Below, one piece after another: positions 20,180 through 51,070 of a DNA stretch of 64,000 nucleotides. Below the pieces are notes generated by a model, which was not told the DNA's origin, searched no databases, and was given only the letters and a program-made list of their open reading frames with translations. Within the stretch, counting starts at the first letter, position 1. Every line of letters begins with the position of its first letter. Both the position numbers and the translations under genes were made by a program. Where the stretch lies: the IMG/VR virus record IMGVR_UViG_3300031993_000006, positions 64,001-128,000 of that record. The stretch is one strand, 5' to 3'. The stretch comes from a virus. Its lineage: Duplodnaviria > Caudoviricetes.

Positions 20180-23100
20180 ATGAACGCATCAATCAACTTA
20201 AGCCTATTTGAAAGTGTCCGTATTCTCTTCGAAGCGGCCGCTACGGAAAACGAACTTTTCCGCATCATTGACGAAGATATCAGAAAGAACTTCTTTATTG
20301 AAGGCGACCCGACTATGCAGGCCGAGCAAGTCGACGAAGTTAACGATGTAGCCGAAATTTTCCGTACCGTAAGCGCTGCGGAAGCCCGACGCATTACCGG
20401 AAATGAAGAAATCCCAGATGTCGAAGATAACGATGCACCGGCCAACCCGGAAAATAATGCACCGAATGGCAACAATGGTACAATTTCAATCGTAGACTAC
20501 ATCCGTGCAAAGGCAATCGAAACCCTTACATATCCATCGAATCACCCAGGGTGCATGGGTATCGGTAATTCCCGCGAAGCAAAAATTAGACTTGGCAAAT
20601 TCTATGGAAGCAAACAAAAGCCGAAACCGCTGGACCCGAAAAACCCAGCAGGCAAATGGATATTGCCGCCGGATGAACCAGCTGCATTATCACAAACAAA
20701 ATATGCGCTCGTGTCCAATCCGGACCAATTGCCGCCAGACTTCAAAAATTATATCAGCCTGGTAGCTAGGCAATATCTACCCGGTTTAATCCGTATAGCA
20801 TTTGAGGATTGCGGTCTTGCTAGTTATCTATTCTATACATTTGATACACTCAGACGAGCACTATTGGTTTACTACGGCGAGCGTTTCGACAATAATTCAA
20901 AAAAACTACAGGACTTCCTTCGAGTGGAATTTCCACGGGAATGGGACTACGACCGTATGTTCCACCTAGCACATATTGTGATTCCGCAACTCGTCATCAA
21001 GTCTAAATTAGCACCGATGGAAGCAACGCCAAATTGCGACAAGGGTCTACTAAAGCAAAATATCGATTACCTCGGTAAAAACAATGTCGAGCTCATCCAA
21101 GAACTCATCGACCCAATCGAAACGCCGGTCGGACCAAACATTGATATAGGCGGTTCCCGTCCATTATCCTACAAAAACCTACTGAAACTTGCCGATGTTA
21201 ATGGAGTAAACCATTCTCAAGTTATTGACCAGCGAATGAAACGCCCTGATGGGACCTTGGATTATTATATTCCTCCGGAAAACAATAATGAGGATGATAA
21301 AAATAATGAAGATGAACAGGTCAAATTCCAGCTTGCCGGTCCGATAGTAACTGATGAAATGCGCCAATCTTATAACGATAACGCTCTTAAAGAAAAGTTA
21401 AAAAATGAAGCTAAATTAGAATTTCCTTCGATAAAGATAGGCGATTGGTATGTCGAACAAATCGGAAACGGCGTATCCGATGCAGAAAACTATCCAGATG
21501 GCTGGTTTACTTTTAATGAACCATCTGCCGGCAAACGACATCAATTCATTCACCGCACACCAAATGAGGAATACGGTGAAGGTGGCGTAGGATACTGGTG
21601 CTGGTGCCGCGGAATGCTCGAAAATTACCGGTCGTCTAAGTTGAAGGATGTCGCCTATGCGCTAGTCCATAAATCAGCACTTGACCCAGCAGTACTTAAA
21701 GACAAAGCATGGAACCATAAGCATAACGGAACTCGTTATGATGCATCAGCATTCGGTATTGTTATTGCCGGTGGTAAAGACCATAATCCTAACGAAGGCC
21801 ATATCCCTGGACTTGTTAAGGCAGATTGCTTCGAATCTAGAAATAACACGACATACGAAAGCGGTCGTCCCGGCCGTCCTAGCGCTGTATCATATCCACC
21901 CGACATGGTACCTAATGGCGGAAAAATTCCTGGTCTTGTCCCCATTAGAGACAGTATGTCCCTTAAAACAATGAACATTGCACAGGCTATCAATAACTCA
22001 ATCTTTTCATTAGCATTGATAGGCAAATGGGACTCCAACATAAATGTATACGATAGCGACGGAACACTGCACCCGGAAAATCTAGTACCCCTCATGCAAA
22101 AATGGTTCCCTGCCGATATTTCAGATGCCGAGCTTTTACCGGCACCGGAGAATATATATCATAGGCCAATTCGAATAAAGAGCATCGATATCAATGAAAT
22201 GGCGAAAGATATCGAACATATTATCACGACAAAGGGAACGCGTGTAAACGGTTTCCACCGCAGCGGAAACGATACTAGCGGCGATATATTTAAGTTCGAC
22301 GATTCTATTTTCAGAGGAAATGTATTTCAGTTTAAGGGAACCGACTATAGTGTATTAGCTAAGAATGATGCAACTCTTATTGCAGTTCCTACCGAAGTAT
22401 ACGATTCTACCCGTAAAAATTGTGATGGGAAGCTAGAAAATATCTTATTCTTCATGCAAGAAGATATTGACCCGCCGGCATTATTATTCCTCTATTTCAA
22501 CTATCCTGGCCAGAAGAAACATGTCGTTCCATTCCAAACAGAGCCAATCGCCTTGAGCGATGCACTATCGCTTAACGTCGATTCAGTAATAGACAAGCTC
22601 CAGCTCGACCAAATGAATAGAGATAAGCAAAAGAATCCACGCACTCTTCCTACACCGGATGAGCATGGCATCACCTGGTATGCTCCTATATTAGGCGAAA
22701 CACTCAAGAAAAATAGAATCGGCGTAGATATTAAGAACGGGGGAAAGGTATATCTTTCGGGACCGGATACAAATAATGAAGCCGTGCCTATCGAATGCAA
22801 AATACCCGGGCGCCTTCGGACATTCACCGCAAGAGGAAGTTTTATCAAGGTAGGTGACTCTGGATATAACCTATTTTTTAACGCACACCGCCGGAGCTAT
22901 ATCGGCTATGTAAGAAACAATAAAACTACTTGGTTCGAAGTCTTGTTCAGAACAACCTTCCCGGGAACCGATAATGCGCTTCTGAGCTACATCGATGATG
23001 AGGGGGAACGAGTCAAGAAACTGACGTTAGGCAACATCTATGGAAATCTAGCAAACCGTATGCGAATGTCCTCAAAAGACCGCTATACAGGATGCATCGA

Positions 23101-23326
23101 CTGGGTATCCACCGATGACACTATAGATGATGTCAATATATCCGATGACTTCAAGAATGAACAGTACGAGAATCATCCAAAAGATATCGGTCTATGCGTA
23201 ATCGCCGGCGATTTCAACGGAGACGCCCATAAGGCGGTGGGATATATCGACTGGTACAGTACCAGTACACTTGAATACCTCGATACGACTCCGGTATTCC
23301 TCAATGACCTATATCACAACGATTAA
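20180..23326 (+). CDS. Large hypothetical protein (1048 aa), partly related to the upstream gene
   Basis: AGGA RBS. N-terminal LFESVRILFEAA. YLPGLIRIAF matches YMPGVARIAV upstream, and YWCW...YDASAFGIVI...SRNN matches PWCI...YGTSMIAVIV...PRWN. Confidence 0.85.
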   Translation: MNASINLSLFESVRILFEAAATENELFRIIDEDIRKNFFIEGDPTMQAEQVDEVNDVAEIFRTVSAAEARRITGNEEIPDVEDNDAPANPENNAPNGNNGTISIVDYIRAKAIETLTYPSNHPGCMGIGNSREAKIRLGKFYGSKQKPKPLDPKNPAGKWILPPDEPAALSQTKYALVSNPDQLPPDFKNYISLVARQYLPGLIRIAFEDCGLASYLFYTFDTLRRALLVYYGERFDNNSKKLQDFLRVEFPREWDYDRMFHLAHIVIPQLVIKSKLAPMEATPNCDKGLLKQNIDYLGKNNVELIQELIDPIETPVGPNIDIGGSRPLSYKNLLKLADVNGVNHSQVIDQRMKRPDGTLDYYIPPENNNEDDKNNEDEQVKFQLAGPIVTDEMRQSYNDNALKEKLKNEAKLEFPSIKIGDWYVEQIGNGVSDAENYPDGWFTFNEPSAGKRHQFIHRTPNEEYGEGGVGYWCWCRGMLENYRSSKLKDVAYALVHKSALDPAVLKDKAWNHKHNGTRYDASAFGIVIAGGKDHNPNEGHIPGLVKADCFESRNNTTYESGRPGRPSAVSYPPDMVPNGGKIPGLVPIRDSMSLKTMNIAQAINNSIFSLALIGKWDSNINVYDSDGTLHPENLVPLMQKWFPADISDAELLPAPENIYHRPIRIKSIDINEMAKDIEHIITTKGTRVNGFHRSGNDTSGDIFKFDDSIFRGNVFQFKGTDYSVLAKNDATLIAVPTEVYDSTRKNCDGKLENILFFMQEDIDPPALLFLYFNYPGQKKHVVPFQTEPIALSDALSLNVDSVIDKLQLDQMNRDKQKNPRTLPTPDEHGITWYAPILGETLKKNRIGVDIKNGGKVYLSGPDTNNEAVPIECKIPGRLRTFTARGSFIKVGDSGYNLFFNAHRRSYIGYVRNNKTTWFEVLFRTTFPGTDNALLSYIDDEGERVKKLTLGNIYGNLANRMRMSSKDRYTGCIDWVSTDDTIDDVNISDDFKNEQYENHPKDIGLCVIAGDFNGDAHKAVGYIDWYSTSTLEYLDTTPVFLNDLYHND

Positions 23327-23345
23327 CCAAATCAAAGACAAATAA

Positions 23346-23372
23346 GAAAGGCGGTCCGGTGGGCCGCCTTTC
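23346..23372. terminator. Hairpin terminator, probably usable on both strands
   Basis: GAAAGGCGGTCC-GGT-GGGCCGCCTTTC. Confidence 0.75.
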
Positions 23373-23380
23373 CCGTTTAA

Positions 23381-23585
23381 ACCGTTAACTGAAACCTACC
23401 TAAATCTACCAAGAGATAGACCTATGTGATTTCCTACCTTGCCCATCGCTGGGTAGGCCGTAACGGCACTTAATCAACCGCATCTACGCCATATTCCTAA
23501 TATGCATCAAACAACACGGCTGGCTTGCCTAGTCCTACTCCATTGCTGGAGAGCCTTAACACGGTCGGCATATCAGACTAGACAT
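23381..23585 (-). ncRNA. Candidate structured non-coding RNA (~200 nt), family not recognised
   Basis: No ORF. Upstream CCTATATTTAG promoter-like motif (23588-23598, minus strand) and a downstream terminator. Several stems, including CTCCA-GCAA-TGGAG and CCCA-GCGA-TGGG with GNRA loops. Confidence 0.5.
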
Positions 23586-23662
23586 TTCTAAATATAGGTT
23601 ATTTTCTATATATTTCAATAGCAGATTTCGCTATATTTAGTTAAATTTTGCTAACATTTTCG

Positions 23663-24130
23663 TTAACAGCTAGCAACCCGCACCATCTTCAGCGCAGACT
23701 TTCCGGCATTGTTCCCTACATCCCCCCAGTGGCTCTTAGTCCACCCGGCAAAGAACAACGCCATATCCACAAGAGATGCCTTCCACCGGGGAAGCCCGTT
23801 TTCCCGCAACGCGCCCCTGTACAGGTCATCGCATTCCTCGCGGTTCAACTGTCCGAACCCCTTCTCGCCATAGAGTGCATCATGCAGCAACGCCGCAACA
23901 TTGAACCCGGCACCGCCATGTTCCTTCCAAGACGGGAGAATCCACTGGAAAGCCTTCGGGACGGAGGCCCCGTCAGACTCGAAACCAGCCTTGATGAGGA
24001 TATGCATCCGGTAAGGTACATAGTTAGCATCGTGTGCAGTAATATCGATGGAAAGGTCCCGTGAAAGGATATACTTTCCACCAACCTTTTCATATTCGAG
24101 CGGACTATACATCATTGAATCGAGTGTCAT
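23663..24130 (-). CDS. DUF1353-family protein
   Basis: GFESDGASVP...AALLHDALY...REECDDLY. ATG 24130 follows GGAAGG. TATAAACT at 24158-24165. Confidence 0.85.
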   Translation of the reverse strand: MTLDSMMYSPLEYEKVGGKYILSRDLSIDITAHDANYVPYRMHILIKAGFESDGASVPKAFQWILPSWKEHGGAGFNVAALLHDALYGEKGFGQLNREECDDLYRGALRENGLPRWKASLVDMALFFAGWTKSHWGDVGNNAGKSALKMVRVASC

Positions 24131-24169
24131 AGCAAACCTTCCGATAAACAATCCACTAGTTTATAGAAT

Positions 24170-30512: not shown

Positions 30513-31903
30513 TGGGCAGGAAGATGCCACCCTTTAGGGTGGCTTAGGAATGCCCACGAGAACACTTTGGGAACACTTTCTTGGTTTCTTGCAGAGAAAT
30601 GAGTACAAAACGGTTGCAATTAGCACTGTACTTTTATAAACTTTAAGCTGAACACGGGTGAAAGTATGTGTACGATAACTTACGATAACTTATAATGCAG
30701 AGCTCCGCTTCAAGGATAGAGCAGACCAAGAATACTGGTCTAGTCTTCTTGGAACGGCTAGACTCGCATACAATGAGTGTGCCAACATACTAGATTCCAA
30801 CAAGATACACCTGGACTTGAAGTCCGTACACAATGCGGTGTACTATATATTACGGGAAGACTTTCCGACAATACCATCCCAAGGTATCATCAAAATATAT
30901 AAGGAGTGCATATCAGCATTCCGTTCAATCAACTCCAATGGACATATAGAACACAAGATTCCGACCAAGAAGAACCTGTCTATGCGGTTGGACAAGCGGC
31001 TCTACTCCAAAATGAGTATTGATGGAATATCGCTTTGCTCGGAGAAATCCAATCGTAGGGCAGTTGCCGAAATAGTCAAGTTTCCCCGACTGGTTGATTT
31101 GTTCAAGAAATTTCCGACCCAGGACCCACTCATCTTCAAGCGAGACGGCAAGTTCTACTTGTCCATTCCGTTTGATGCACCAGAAATTCCAGTACAGAAC
31201 GACACCTGCATCGGCGTAGACTTGGGAGAGCGTAGGTTTGCGATTACCTCGGATGGCATCATGTTCAACGACAAGGAATACAATGCCCGTAGGCGTAAAC
31301 TCCGCTACTTGAAGCGTTGCTTACAGAAGAAGGGAACCAAGTCTGCTAGACGGCATAAACGCAACTTATCAGTTAAGGAAATGAACCAGTCCACAGATAT
31401 GTGCTATAAAGTTGCTAATGCAATTATTGAAATCACGGTGGATAGCTTCATCGTCCTAGAAGATTTAAGCAATATCAAGAAGAATACTTCCAAGTCCAAG
31501 GAAGGGTTCAAGAAGAAAAATCATAACCGTAGAATTGGGCAGGTTCCGTTCTACAAATTCAAACAAATCTTGTCATACAAGGCACTACTCAATGGAAAAC
31601 GGGTAGAAACAGTTTCTCCGTTTATGACAAGCCAAACCGACTGCACGACAGGCAAGAAAGACGGAACACGCAAGAACCGAAGATTCTATTGCAAGAATGG
31701 TACCGTCCTTGATGCCGACTGGAATGGTGCAGTCAATATCGCTCAAAAGAGCAAACATCCTTTCTCGTTCAAGATGCCGCTAGACGGTACTCTGAAAACC
31801 TGGAAGGCAGGGTGCAAGTCAACCACCCAATCGTGTATCAGTCTCCCTCTGGAAACACCGGGAGCCGTACAAGCTCACCGCCTTTAGTCGGTGGGTAGTT
31901 GAC
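30513..31903 (+). mobile_element. IS200/IS605-family tnpB-only element #1
   Basis: Left-end hairpin GCCACCC-TTTA-GGGTGGC (30526-30543), right-end hairpin CTCACCG...CGGTGGG followed by TAGTTGAC (to 31903). No tnpA. Confidence 0.8.
30666..31887 (+). pseudogene. tnpB: TnpB RNA-guided nuclease, 5' end frameshifted by a 10-bp tandem duplication
   Basis: RuvC motifs GVDLG, VLEDL and DADWNGAVNI are intact. ATG 30666 reaches TAA at 30693 because TACGATAACT occurs twice (30671-30690). Removing one copy gives MCTITYNAELRF..., in frame with the 30817 ORF. Confidence 0.8.
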
Positions 31904-33212: not shown

Positions 33213-33389
33213 GTGAACTACGCACCGCCTAGAGGCAATGAGCTTCGCGTTAGTCCCGAATGGATGCCCGCGCCTTTAACCCCGATTTCCCCGAGGCGAG
33301 TACCTTGCGATACACTAATAGTTTATAAATTTTTACCCAATGTGTCAAGGGGCTTTCATATCACCGCCTAAAGATGGTGAGTTTTCCGC
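33213..33389 (-). mobile_element. Non-coding IS200/IS605 mini-element (left end, promoter, omegaRNA scaffold, right end)
   Basis: 33213-33300 aligns with the 3' end of tnpB element #2 (49813-49900). Left-end hairpin TCACCATC-TTTA-GGCGGTGA. TTGACA-17-TAAACT promoter on the minus strand (33348-33320). Confidence 0.8.
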
Positions 33390-49812: not shown

Positions 49813-51070
49813 GTGAACTACGCACAGCATGAAGGCTGCGCGCTTCGCGATAGCCCCGTAGGGGCGCCCGCGCCTTGGACCGCCGTTCCGGCGGCGAGAA
49901 TTCTTTTACCTTCGGCAAGAATGTTGATGGCGGCGTTGAAGTCCCTGTCGTGGGAAGTGCCGCATTGCGGGCACTTCCACTCCCGGACATTCAAGTCTTT
50001 AACAACTTCATTCCTGAAGCCGCAGTAGTGGCAGATTTGCGAGGAAGGGAACCATCGTCCGACACAGACGATGGTCCTTCCATACCATTCAGCCTTGTAT
50101 TTCAGCATATTCAGGAATATTCCCCATCCGGTGTCGTGCTCGGACTTGGCAAGGTCGCCTTCGGCGACCTGCCTTACATCCAGGTCTTCGACTGCAATCG
50201 TTTGGTTCTCGCGAATGAGTCGGGTTGATAGCTTGTGGAGGAAATCCTTGCGTTGGCTAGCAATGTGCTCGTGAAGGCGGGCGATGCGCTTGCGCAGCGC
50301 CTCGCGACGGGCAGACTTGCTCTTTTTCTTTGAAAACGCTTTCTGGAGGACCGCTAGGCGGTACTCGGCAAGTTTCATATAGCGCGGGTTGGCGACGGCC
50401 TCGCCGTCGCTCGTCACGCAGAAGTCCTTGAATCCGAGGTCGATACCTATGGCATAATCGGATTTTGGGAGCGCCTTCGGCGCTTCCTCCTCGACCAGTA
50501 TCGAGGCGTAGAACTTTCCGGAACGCGACCGGCTTACGGTCGCGTGCTTGATATCCTTCTCGCTCCAGTCGATATCCTTATAGTTCTTGAACTTGACGAA
50601 GCCGATTTTCGGCAGGCGCAGCCTGCCGTTCTCGATTCGGATATTTTCCTTTGTTCGATAAGTGGTATAGGAATCGCGGTCGTGATGTTTGGCTTTAAAC
50701 TTCGGAAGGCCGACACCATCGGCCTTCCTCTCGAAGAAGTTCTTGAACGCAGCGTTCAGGTTGAGGACTTCGCCCGTTAGGGCGTTGCTATCGACTTCCT
50801 TCAAGAACGGAAACTTGGCATAGTAGTCGGTAGGTTTCGTCCGGCACTGTGTGCCGGTAGCCTCATACGACTTCAAACGGGCGTCCAGCATGCAGTTGTA
50901 CACCTTGCGGCAGCAGCCGAAGGTCTTGCCTAGCAAGACCGCCTGCTGCCGGCTTGGATATAGCCGAATGTTGTATGCCCGTTGAAACATGTCTTAAATA
51001 TATACTATTCTAGCTGTTTATGGGAGTGGTTTTTTATCTAACTGCCTTAAGGCGATGAGAATTCTTGTGG
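49813..51070 (-). mobile_element. IS200/IS605-family tnpB-only element #2
   Basis: Right end GCGCAGC-CTTCAT-GCTGTGC-GTAGTTCAC, left-end hairpin near 51036-51060, no tnpA. Confidence 0.8.
49818..50990 (-). CDS. tnpB: TnpB RNA-guided nuclease (intact)
   Basis: [30 protein letters not shown] and CPQCG zinc finger, [10 protein letters not shown]. Confidence 0.95.

What the first reader, a model, noticed from the sequence alone, without database searches (positions are those of the whole stretch)
23381..23598. Stand-alone ~200 nt structured ncRNA candidate
Seen on the minus strand: CCTATATTTAG (the same box that precedes the leaderless genes), then an ORF-free stretch dense in stems. GTCTAGTCT pairs with GGACTAGGC and encloses CTCCA-GCAA-TGGAG. 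Further stems are CATATT-AGG-AATATG, CCTACC...GGTAGG overlapping CCCA-GCGA-TGGG, and TCTATC-TCTT-GGTAGA. A terminator follows at 23346-23372. There are two GNRA tetraloops in this orientation, and two CCGTGTT copies could pair with downstream ACGGC/ACGGT (possible pseudoknots). I do not recognise it as tRNA, tmRNA, omegaRNA or a known riboswitch or ribozyme. Inference: an independently transcribed phage RNA of unknown function.
Basis: partly seen in the sequence, partly recalled or inferred. Interest (0 to 1): 0.7.

Follow-up and report, generated by a model that had tools for sequence, protein, structure and literature searches.

The report
Protein-less mini-transposon carrying a TnpB guide RNA
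The "orphan" structured RNA is real, but it is the guide-RNA scaffold (omega RNA) of a 295-bp protein-less mini-transposon of the IS607 family, present three times in this 260-kb phage, which also carries the full element with its RNA-guided nuclease TnpB; this is a known kind of selfish element, not a new class of RNA.

Summary
Window 23381-23587 (minus strand) is a 207-nt, ORF-free RNA whose helices show compensatory changes, both across 90 homologues and within the 33 protein-less copies alone.

The "unknown function, not omegaRNA" reading does not hold. A covariance model built from this RNA finds two more copies in the same genome. It also finds a diverged copy at G000:147310-147515 that overlaps the 3' end of a 577-aa TnpB-family gene. 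That tnpB association held at every diverged copy with enough upstream DNA in other contigs, and at none of 36 copies like this one.

The ~88 nt upstream, including the promoter-like box, are homologous to the left end of the tnpB element. Filled/empty site pairs in related phage contigs show precise insertion right after GGGT. GGT sits at both junctions and there is no target duplication. Two autonomous relatives carry a serine-recombinase tnpA, which places the family in IS607.

So the finding is left end plus promoter fused to right end plus omega-RNA scaffold. The terminator belongs to the insertion site, not to the element.

The proposed function is inferred, not shown: a trans guide for the phage's TnpB that cuts empty sites and drives retention or homing.

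First-reader notes on other windows of this genome had already suggested this for the other two copies. Known kind, new member.

The parts
23381..23675 (-). The whole mini-element ('type 1'), 295 bp: left end fused to right end, no ORF. The boundary is ambiguous by the GGT shared between the target and the element's 3' end.
   Evidence: Homology block shared by 3 copies in the genome and more than 30 copies elsewhere, with unrelated flanks. Filled/empty pairs define the junctions.
23676..23679 (-). GGGT target / TAM-like motif immediately 5' of the left end
   Evidence: GGGT (CGGT in one pair) directly precedes the flank-matching sequence in the empty sites inspected for both element types. 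GGGT precedes nearly all left ends.
23588..23675 (-). Left end (LE), homologous to the LE of the tnpB-carrying and autonomous elements. It contains the conserved core AAAATTTAACTAAATATA (23632-23649) and the inward promoter-like box.
   Evidence: Alignment with the LE of the tnpB element G000:145524.., with the autonomous relatives, and with 24 type-1 LEs.
23588..23598 (-). CCTATATTTAG box (Bacteroidota -7-like TAnnTTTG type), ending 1 nt before model position 1 of the RNA. Inferred promoter of the RNA, homologous to the box in front of tnpB in the full element.
   Evidence: The box is retained at a fixed distance in 31 of 33 distinct type-1 copies, even where the rest of the LE has diverged. 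The same box occurs in the type-2 LE. Transcription itself is not shown.
23381..23587 (-). omega-RNA-type scaffold (207 nt). Domain 1 is a three-way junction with the invariant loop GACCGUGUUAA (23556-23566). Domain 2 is a long hairpin. Domain 3 is closed by GCCGUUA (23461-23467) pairing with UAACGGU (23381-23387).
   Evidence: Covariance model R1 and alignments A4-A7. Paired cells: 98.0% against 78.5% in shuffles, with 40 of 56 pairs showing compensatory changes. Within type 1 alone, 14 pairs show double changes against 4.8 in shuffles.
23361..23380 (-). 3' flank directly after the scaffold (UUAAACGGGAAAGGCGGCCC): the position of the guide in TnpB omega RNAs. Here it overlaps the terminator stem.
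   Evidence: Homology between copies stops exactly at ..AACGGT, and each copy has a different flank. The guide role is inferred by analogy, not shown.
23334..23372 (.). Intrinsic terminator (stem 23346-23372, T-run 23334-23345) shared by the convergent genes. It is pre-existing host-locus sequence, not part of the element.
   Evidence: Sequence and my script. The filled/empty pair L151/L108 shows such a terminator present in the empty site as well.
23663..24151 (-). Upstream gene (162 aa, tail-assembly-chaperone-like). Its last three codons and stop codon (GCT AGC TGT TAA) are supplied by the element.
   Evidence: phrog_1158, E = 8e-22. Reading frame. Inferred empty site ..CGG GT|T TAA...
23630..23640 (+). 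Outward-facing promoter-like box GCTATATTTAG inside the LE core, on the opposite strand
   Evidence: The same motif (CAAATATAGCAAA, the reverse complement of TTTGCTATATTTG) recurs in the type-2 LE and elsewhere in the genome. Function not tested.

Best explanation
Window 23381-23675 (-) is a miniature, protein-less, non-autonomous derivative of an IS607-family tnpB transposon. Its left end, carrying the promoter that drives tnpB in the full element, is fused directly to its right end, which encodes the omega-RNA (reRNA) scaffold.

**Shown here**
- The RNA fold is conserved, with covariation.
- The RNA is homologous to the RNA overlapping the 3' end of a 577-aa TnpB gene. That gene is present once in this phage, at G000:145524-147515.
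- The left ends are homologous.
- The element inserts precisely after GGGT, with no target duplication.
- Autonomous relatives carry a serine-recombinase tnpA.

**Inferred from published TnpB, IS605 and IS607 work**
- The box at 23588-23598 starts a transcript of scaffold plus the adjacent flank (about 16-20 nt, which serves as the guide), ending at the site's own terminator.
- The RNA is bound in trans by the phage's TnpB.
- The complex recognises GGGT plus flank, which is the empty site in a genome copy that lost the element or in a co-infecting relative that lacks it.
- The cut is repaired from an element-bearing copy, so the element is retained or spreads.
- Movement to new GGGT sites needs a serine TnpA supplied in trans.
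For: **Copies and association with tnpB**
- The genome holds three copies at 88-100% identity, plus one diverged copy found by the covariance model.
- In 54 diverged ('type 2') copies the RNA overlaps the end of a TnpB-like ORF wherever enough upstream DNA is available. None of 36 'type 1' copies has such an ORF.

**The protein**
- Pfam PF07282 scores 2e-12, above its cut-off. NCBIfam guided_TnpB scores 3e-24.
- PDB hits are to Cas12f and TnpB.
- D323, E419 and D507 and the CxxC..CxxC motif are invariant.

**Ends and mobility**
- The left end is homologous between type 1, type 2 and the autonomous elements.
- Filled/empty pairs exist for type 1 (L151 vs L108; L157 vs L131) and for type 2 (four pairs). 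GGGT lies 5' of the flank, and the guide-position sequence matches the empty site at 23 of 24 positions.
- tnpA (MerR-like HTH plus resolvase domain) lies directly upstream of tnpB in L094 and L119.
- Published IS607 data match this: a TGGG target, a strict GG core, no terminal inverted repeats and no target duplication (10.1101/2023.11.20.567912).
- Protein-less PATEs that "often encode omegaRNAs" needing TnpB in trans are already described (10.1101/2023.03.14.532601).

**Selection on the RNA in the protein-less lineage**
- 14 pairs carry compensatory changes, against 4.8 in shuffles.
- The scaffold is 91.5% identical between copies, against 75.1% for the left end.
- The promoter-like box is retained.

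**Co-occurrence.** Type 1 and type 2 occur together in G000, G001, G002, G004 and G005.
Against: - The promoter, the RNA ends and the guide length are therefore inferred.
- No tnpB element with a type-1-like scaffold was found. Type 1 scores only 34-65 bits against type 2, so recognition of type-1 RNA by the resident TnpB is assumed.
- In this copy the first 20 nt of flank overlap the terminator stem, which is awkward for a guide.
- No Y1 TnpA is present. The only serine recombinase in the genome is 33-35% identical to the tnpA of the autonomous relatives, so current mobility in this genome is doubtful.
- G003, a 36%-complete contig, has a type-1 copy but no type-2 copy.
Confidence: 0.82

Rival explanations
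1. Exapted guide-RNA genes. The cassettes would no longer be selfish. They would serve the phage as stand-alone, promoter-and-terminator-equipped guide RNAs that programme its TnpB against chosen targets such as the host genome or rival phages, a CRISPR-array-like multi-guide arrangement.
For: - The promoter-like box is conserved even where the left end has diverged.
- 18 of 32 distinct type-1 loci have an intrinsic terminator within 90 nt downstream, against 2 of 44 type-2 loci (Fisher p = 4e-7).
- There are three cassettes per TnpB gene in G000 and in G001.
- The RNA structure is under selection without a cis protein.
- The copy C locus is conserved across several related contigs.
Against: - The flanks are simply the sequence of the insertion site; empty sites carry the same sequence, including the terminator.
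- The distance from scaffold to terminator varies from 3 to 60 nt and often leaves no free guide.
- The terminator bias is also expected if only insertions between a stop codon and its terminator are tolerated.
Confidence: 0.1
2. Inert relic. A decaying internal-deletion remnant of a tnpB transposon whose RNA is no longer used.
For: - No tnpB or tnpA lies in cis.
- No cognate tnpA is present in the genome.
- The guide position overlaps a terminator in this copy.
Against: - The type-1 lineage keeps 98.9% of cells paired, with 14 pairs showing compensatory changes.
- The scaffold is far better conserved than the left end.
- There are more than 25 independent insertion sites in diverse contigs, so the lineage has been actively spreading.
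- Coding capacity in the scaffold is lost while the structure is kept.
Confidence: 0.06
3. An unrelated novel ncRNA (ribozyme, riboswitch-like or regulatory sRNA) that only by chance resembles the tnpB 3' region.
For: - No Rfam hit.
- GNRA tetraloops and an invariant 11-nt loop suggest tertiary contacts.
Against: - cmsearch E-values of 1e-9 to 1e-18 to 54 tnpB-linked RNAs, with the same helices and the same invariant motifs.
- The left-end homology and the transposon-like junctions are not explained by this reading.
Confidence: 0.02

Closest known systems
Protein-less IS200/IS605-type mini-elements (PATEs) carrying omega RNAs, as noted in Geobacillus stearothermophilus (Meers et al., bioRxiv 10.1101/2023.03.14.532601) and for IStrons (10.1101/2023.11.20.567912)
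   Same: Left and right ends of a tnpB transposon with no protein gene. The right end encodes the omega-RNA scaffold. TnpB and TnpA are needed in trans. Several copies occur per genome.
   Different: The ends here are of IS607 type: GG/GGGT junctions and a serine tnpA in the autonomous relatives. No conserved subterminal palindromes and no Y1 TnpA were found. The tnpB promoter box is fused right onto the scaffold. The elements live in rumen-type jumbo-phage contigs.
IS607-family tnpB/omega-RNA elements (e.g. the Clostridium botulinum IStron with serine TnpA; Zedaveinyte et al.)
   Same: - A serine-recombinase tnpA lies upstream of tnpB in autonomous relatives.
- The target contains GG (published TGGG; here GGGT).
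- There are no terminal inverted repeats and no target duplication.
- The guide is taken from the right flank.
   Different: - The finding itself has neither tnpA nor tnpB, and no group I intron.
- The partner TnpB is unusually long (577 aa) and falls below the NCBIfam TnpB cut-off.
- The RNA family is not in Rfam.
ISDra2 TnpB omega RNA (reRNA) and Cas12f sgRNA scaffolds
   Same: A multi-helix scaffold of about 200 nt, 5' of a 3' guide. The scaffold overlaps the tnpB 3' end and the transposon right end in the full element.
   Different: No detectable sequence similarity. The fold was derived here only by covariation. Binding and guide length are untested.
TldR guide RNAs (domesticated, nuclease-dead TnpB repressors in prophages; Wiegand et al., 10.1101/2023.11.30.569447)
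   Same: Phage-borne TnpB-family protein using an omega-like RNA.
   Different: TldRs have lost RuvC residues and carry guides matching host promoters. Here the RuvC triad is intact and the flanks match only the insertion sites.

Membership tests
TnpB omega RNA (reRNA) scaffold | Homologous, in sequence and structure, to the RNA encoded at the transposon right end that overlaps the 3' end of tnpB | tested here: met
   The model built from the finding hits the RNA overlapping the tnpB 3' end in the own genome (47 bits, E = 7e-13) and in 53 other loci. The helices are shared, with 40 of 56 pairs showing compensatory changes.
TnpB omega RNA (reRNA) scaffold | The scaffold ends exactly at the transposon's right boundary and is followed by non-conserved flank, which serves as the guide | tested here: met
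   Homology stops at ..AACGGT in all copies. Filled/empty pairs place the junction there.
TnpB omega RNA (reRNA) scaffold | Encoded in cis with tnpB | tested here: not met
   No tnpB lies upstream of any of 36 type-1 copies. The nearest cognate tnpB is about 60 kb away in G000. The RNA would therefore have to act in trans.
TnpB omega RNA (reRNA) scaffold | Bound by TnpB and directs TAM-dependent DNA cleavage | not testable with these tools
   Needs biochemistry. A TAM-like GGGT next to flank-matching sequence in empty sites is only consistent with this.
IS607-family transposon (non-autonomous derivative) | Autonomous relatives encode a serine-recombinase TnpA with an N-terminal HTH, upstream of tnpB | tested here: met
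   L094 and L119 have tnpA (resolvase domain) directly upstream of the 577-aa tnpB and the type-2 RNA, with the same kind of left end.
IS607-family transposon (non-autonomous derivative) | No terminal inverted repeats, no target-site duplication, GG core at both junctions, G-rich target | tested here: met
   The empty site reads ..GGGGT|ATG... The filled site reads ..GGGGT|TGTTAGC...AACGGT|ATG... The published target is TGGG with a strict GG core.
IS607-family transposon (non-autonomous derivative) | A cognate TnpA is available to mobilise it in this genome | tested here: inconclusive
   One serine recombinase is present at G000:196654-197196. It belongs to another tnpB element and is only 33-35% identical to the tnpA of the autonomous relatives.
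PATE in the strict sense (IS200/IS605, Y1 transposase) | Conserved subterminal palindromic hairpins at both ends, recognised by a Y1 HUH TnpA | tested here: not met
   The imperfect LE palindrome TTGCTAGC..GTTAGCAA of this copy is not kept in the type-2 or autonomous left ends. No PF01797 match in the genome.
TnpB (the inferred protein partner, G000:145767-147500) | RuvC D-E-D triad plus C-terminal zinc ribbon / TNB domain | tested here: met
   PF07282 scores 47 bits against a cut-off of 26. D323, E419, D507 and the cysteines are invariant in 21 homologues. NCBIfam guided_TnpB scores 85.8 bits, below its cut-off of 100. The AF2 model was too poor to use.
Any Rfam 15 family | Score at or above the gathering threshold | tested here: not met
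   0 hits at gathering thresholds over the window. Only chance-level hits (E of 0.6 or more) in the relaxed scan.

The most novel reading that the evidence does not exclude
The type-1 cassettes may be more than passengers. They could be a lineage of promoter-driven, stand-alone guide-RNA genes that give one phage TnpB several guides at once, an array-less step between transposon omega RNA and CRISPR-type trans guides. Their strong bias for sites just upstream of terminators would then reflect selection for defined RNA 3' ends. Their use would be to cut co-infecting relatives that lack the insert, a form of inter-phage gene drive or exclusion.
Probability: 0.15. Interest if true: 0.75.

Novelty: new member of a known kind. 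Interest (0 to 1): 0.42.

Why it matters
- **Annotation.** It turns an apparent orphan ncRNA into an annotated feature: a new omega-RNA family (absent from Rfam) with a covariation-supported fold, tied to a large and abundant TnpB clade (577 aa, at least 812 homologues).
- **Natural test cases.** It documents, with filled and empty sites, a protein-less IS607-type mini-element spreading among jumbo-phage contigs. This gives natural examples of trans-acting omega RNAs with a probable GGGT TAM.
- **Follow-up value.** These could be useful for testing trans-guide use by TnpB, and for studying how separate guide genes arose on the way to Cas12 systems.
- **For this scan.** Other "ornate RNAs" in this genome, such as the one in the tRNA island, contain the same element.

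Tried and rejected
- **Public phage records.** blastn of the gap against the phage collection gave no match.
- **Empty site for this copy.** Searching viral contigs for relatives of the upstream 162-aa protein, to find an empty site for this very copy, gave none.
- **Structure prediction.** The AlphaFold2 model of the 577-aa TnpB, from 21 close homologues, was unusable (mean pLDDT 40.5). No fold search was run on it.
- **IS200/IS605 (Y1) reading.** Rejected: no PF01797 match in the genome, and the LE palindrome is not conserved.
- **DGR template/variable repeat.** Rejected, because the differences between copies are mostly transitions that preserve pairing, not adenine-specific changes.
Rejected in favour of helix P3, which covaries.
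- **A tnpB 'parent' with a type-1 scaffold.** None was found among 90 family members from viral and metagenome scans.
- **Guide matches.** Only self, orthologous and empty-site matches came up.

Full report
**1. What is there**

The window is G000:64001-128000 of a 259,974-bp IMG/VR virus record, estimated 91% complete. The finding lies in a 336-nt gap with no ORF of 30 aa or more. The gap sits between gene 20180..23326 (+, 1048 aa, no PHROG match) and gene 23663..24151 (-, 162 aa, phrog_1158 tail assembly chaperone, E = 8e-22).

The minus strand folds with z = -3.2 and the plus strand with z = -2.0. No Rfam family, tRNA or tmRNA matches.

**2. It is repeated**

The same ~300 nt occur three times in the genome:
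- copy A: the window copy, G000:87381-87680 (-)
- copy B: G000:198798-199097 (+), 93% identical
- copy C: G000:237950-238238 (-), 85-88% identical

Homology begins at GGGTTGCTAGC.., about 88 nt upstream of the RNA, and stops sharply at ..CAGTTAACGGT. Beyond both ends the copies are unrelated. The differences between copies preserve pairing. Examples are CTCCA/TGGAG changing to CTTCC/GGAAG, GCCGTTA/TAACGGT changing to GCCATTA/TAATGGT, and many G-U to G-C or A-U changes that fit only the minus strand.

**3. The link to TnpB**

A covariance model of the 207-nt RNA (R1) finds a fourth, diverged copy at G000:147310-147515 (+), scoring 47 bits with E = 7e-13. It finds similar diverged copies in related records.

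The DNA just upstream of each diverged ("type 2") copy encodes C..C...F.C..C.H..NAD...N.I, which is the zinc ribbon and third RuvC motif of TnpB/Cas12. The ORF is 554 aa from the first ATG; gene calls for its homologues are 577-578 aa. It ends inside the RNA.

Evidence that the protein is TnpB-family:
- It matches Pfam PF07282 (Cas12f1-like TNB, 47 bits against a cut-off of 26).
- It matches NCBIfam guided_TnpB at E = 3e-24 (85.8 bits, below the cut-off of 100).
- Its C-terminal region matches solved Cas12f and TnpB chains.
- D323, E419 and D507 are invariant in 21 homologues.

Pattern scans of viral and metagenome contigs gave 90 family members with a bimodal score distribution: 36 "type 1" copies (193-245 bits) and 54 "type 2" copies (34-65 bits). 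Every type-2 copy with enough upstream DNA has the TnpB ORF. No type-1 copy does.

**4. It is a mini-transposon**

The type-2 unit is a discrete 1,992-bp block (G000:145524-147515). It is 75-79% identical in three other phage records whose flanks are unrelated.

Its left end, GGGTTACTAACAGCTAACC..CTCAAATATAGCAAAATCTAC..TGTATTTTTAGG, aligns with the 88 nt upstream of the type-1 RNA, GGGTTGCTAGCTGTTAACG..CTAAATATAGCGAAATCTGC..CCTATATTTAG. Type 1 is therefore the left end, including the box that precedes tnpB, fused to the right end.

Flanks of type-1 copies in other contigs are unrelated to G000 even at the protein level. At least 25 different insertion sites are seen.

For type 1:
- Empty, L108: ..CTTAATTTTCCTCCTATTGGGGGT|ATGTTGAGAGAAACGAACAGG.. 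followed by a terminator.
- Filled, L151: ..CTTAATTTTCCTCCTATTGGGGGT|TGTTAGC…CAGTTAACGGT|ATGTTGAGAAAAACGAACAGG.. followed by the same terminator.

A second type-1 pair (L157/L131) and four type-2 pairs behave the same way. GGGT lies 5' of the flank in all but one pair, where it is CGGT. GGT is present at both junctions and only once in the empty site, and there is no target duplication.

Two loci, L094 and L119, carry a serine-recombinase tnpA (MerR-like HTH plus resolvase domain) directly upstream of this tnpB. Their left end starts GGGTTACCAACTG.. and contains CAAAATTTAACTAAAT.

These are the hallmarks of IS607. Published work reports a 5'-TGGG-3' target with a strict GG core for serine TnpA (10.1101/2023.11.20.567912). 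The genome has no Y1 TnpA. It has one serine recombinase, at 196654-197196, which belongs to another tnpB element and is only 33-35% identical to the cognate type.

**5. The RNA fold**

On all 90 sequences, RNAalifold predicts 56 pairs, 40 of them with compensatory changes. For that structure:
- 98.0% of cells pair, against 78.5% in column shuffles and 32-43% when partners are slid.
- The covariation score is 0.605, against 0.26 in shuffles and 0.04-0.11 when slid.

The alignment was fitted to a model, which favours the structure. Much of the signal is also the single type-1/type-2 split.

Within the 33 distinct type-1 copies alone, using a refined three-way junction for domain 1:
- 98.9% of cells pair.
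- 14 pairs carry double changes, against 4.8 ± 1.2 in shuffles (0 of 500 shuffles reach it) and 1-5 when slid.

The fold has these parts:
- P1, enclosing P1a (a 3-4 bp stem capped by the invariant loop GACCGUGUUAA) and P1b (GNRA-capped)
- P2, a long hairpin
- P3 (GCCGUUR/YAACGGU), closing P3a and P3b/P3c and ending at the last conserved base

Type-1 scaffolds are 91.5% identical on average, against 75.1% for their left ends. The TAnnTTTA(G/A) box stays at a fixed distance even where the left end has diverged. The scaffold has lost all coding capacity. The RNA has therefore been under selection in the protein-less lineage.

**6. This copy in detail**

The inferred empty site is ..CTG AAG ATG GTG CGG GT|T TAA ACGGGAAAGGCGG... 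The element went in just before the stop codon of the chaperone-like gene. It now supplies that gene's last three codons and its stop.

The terminator at 23346-23372 is the site's own terminator. The 20 nt in the guide position (23361-23380) overlap its stem.

**7. How it probably works**

This section is inferred from Meers et al. (10.1101/2023.03.14.532601), who note that PATEs "often encode omegaRNAs" needing TnpB in trans, and from the IS607 study.

1. Transcription from the left-end box gives scaffold plus flank.
2. The phage's single cognate TnpB binds the RNA in trans.
3. The complex cuts GGGT plus flank, which is the empty allele after excision or in a co-infecting relative. The L151 flank matches the L108 empty site at 23 of 24 positions.
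4. Recombinational repair restores or spreads the element.

Co-occurrence of type 1 with type 2 in G000, G001, G002, G004 and G005 fits this. G003, a 36%-complete contig, is the exception.

**8. What remains open**

- Type-1 loci are strongly enriched for a terminator within 90 nt downstream: 18 of 32 against 2 of 44, p = 4e-7. This could reflect tolerated insertion sites (between a stop codon and its terminator) or selection for a defined RNA 3' end. The latter feeds the exaptation reading, which I put at 10-15%.
- No expression data could be obtained.
- No tnpB element with a type-1 scaffold was found.
- The protein model was unusable.

**9. Verdict**

This is a real structured RNA, correctly spotted. 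However, it is a member of a known kind: the omega-RNA-bearing, protein-less derivative of a tnpB transposon, here of IS607 type, in a jumbo phage. The RNA family and the long TnpB clade are undescribed as far as Rfam, NCBIfam and the searched literature show.

First-reader notes on other windows of this genome had already proposed a mobile omega-RNA cassette for copies B and C (e1-5709435). I reached the same reading independently and tested it.

Noticed in passing
window 49818-50990 (-) and 30817-31887 (+); G000:38988, 225479, 2-853, 162707-163769, 186376, 195437: The phage genome holds about nine further TnpB-family loci, most above the NCBIfam TnpB cut-off. None has an RNA matching model R1, so several unrelated tnpB/omega-RNA families coexist in one jumbo phage.
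   Followed up: partly
window 33213-33389: A second ORF-free mini-element of a different tnpB family. blastn links it to regions beside other tnpB loci (G000:251308, 162606, 113813, 40155, 902), as an earlier scan note suggested.
   Followed up: partly
window 23630-23640 (+), inside the left end: The conserved LE core (AAAATTTAACTAAATATAGC) reads on the other strand as GCTATATTTAG, the same promoter-like box, pointing out of the element. The related motif CAAATATAGCAAA recurs at G000:197381-197396 and about 195256. Outward transcription from the left end is possible but untested.
   Followed up: no
G000:198798-199097 (L062:1408-1707 +); L120:2977-3183 (-); L141:3045-3246 (+): Three type-1 copies sit inside or at the end of phage tRNA arrays, on the tRNA strand. 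The L120/L069 copy lacks the left end and promoter box altogether and lies between two tRNA-Ala genes in a 19-tRNA array, so it may be released from the tRNA precursor.
   Followed up: partly
G000:195437-197196 (-) (L097): An IS607-like pair (195-aa serine recombinase with N-terminal HTH, then a TnpB) next to the tRNA island and 1.8 kb from copy B. This is the only recombinase of that kind in the genome.
   Followed up: partly
type-1 versus type-2 3' flanks (loci L062-L170): Type-1 copies are followed by an intrinsic terminator within 90 nt in 18 of 32 distinct loci, type-2 copies in 2 of 44 (p = 4e-7). One type-2 element (L155; empty sites in L104 and L132) went into the 3' arm of a terminator hairpin (GCCACCCTAAAGGGT|GGC).
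   Followed up: partly
L126 and L161; L064, L134, L111/L127: Some loci share the same 3' flank but have different left-end variants or different 5' flanks. This suggests recombination through the element, or replacement of the left part at an occupied site.
   Followed up: no
L094:10340-10010 (-) and L119:4100-4270 (+): In the autonomous relatives, a small conserved ORF (MKRMKVVRVTKDEVEFDDGSIQPMMFDLDYVP..) lies between the left end and tnpA and overlaps the tnpA start. Its function is unknown.
   Followed up: no
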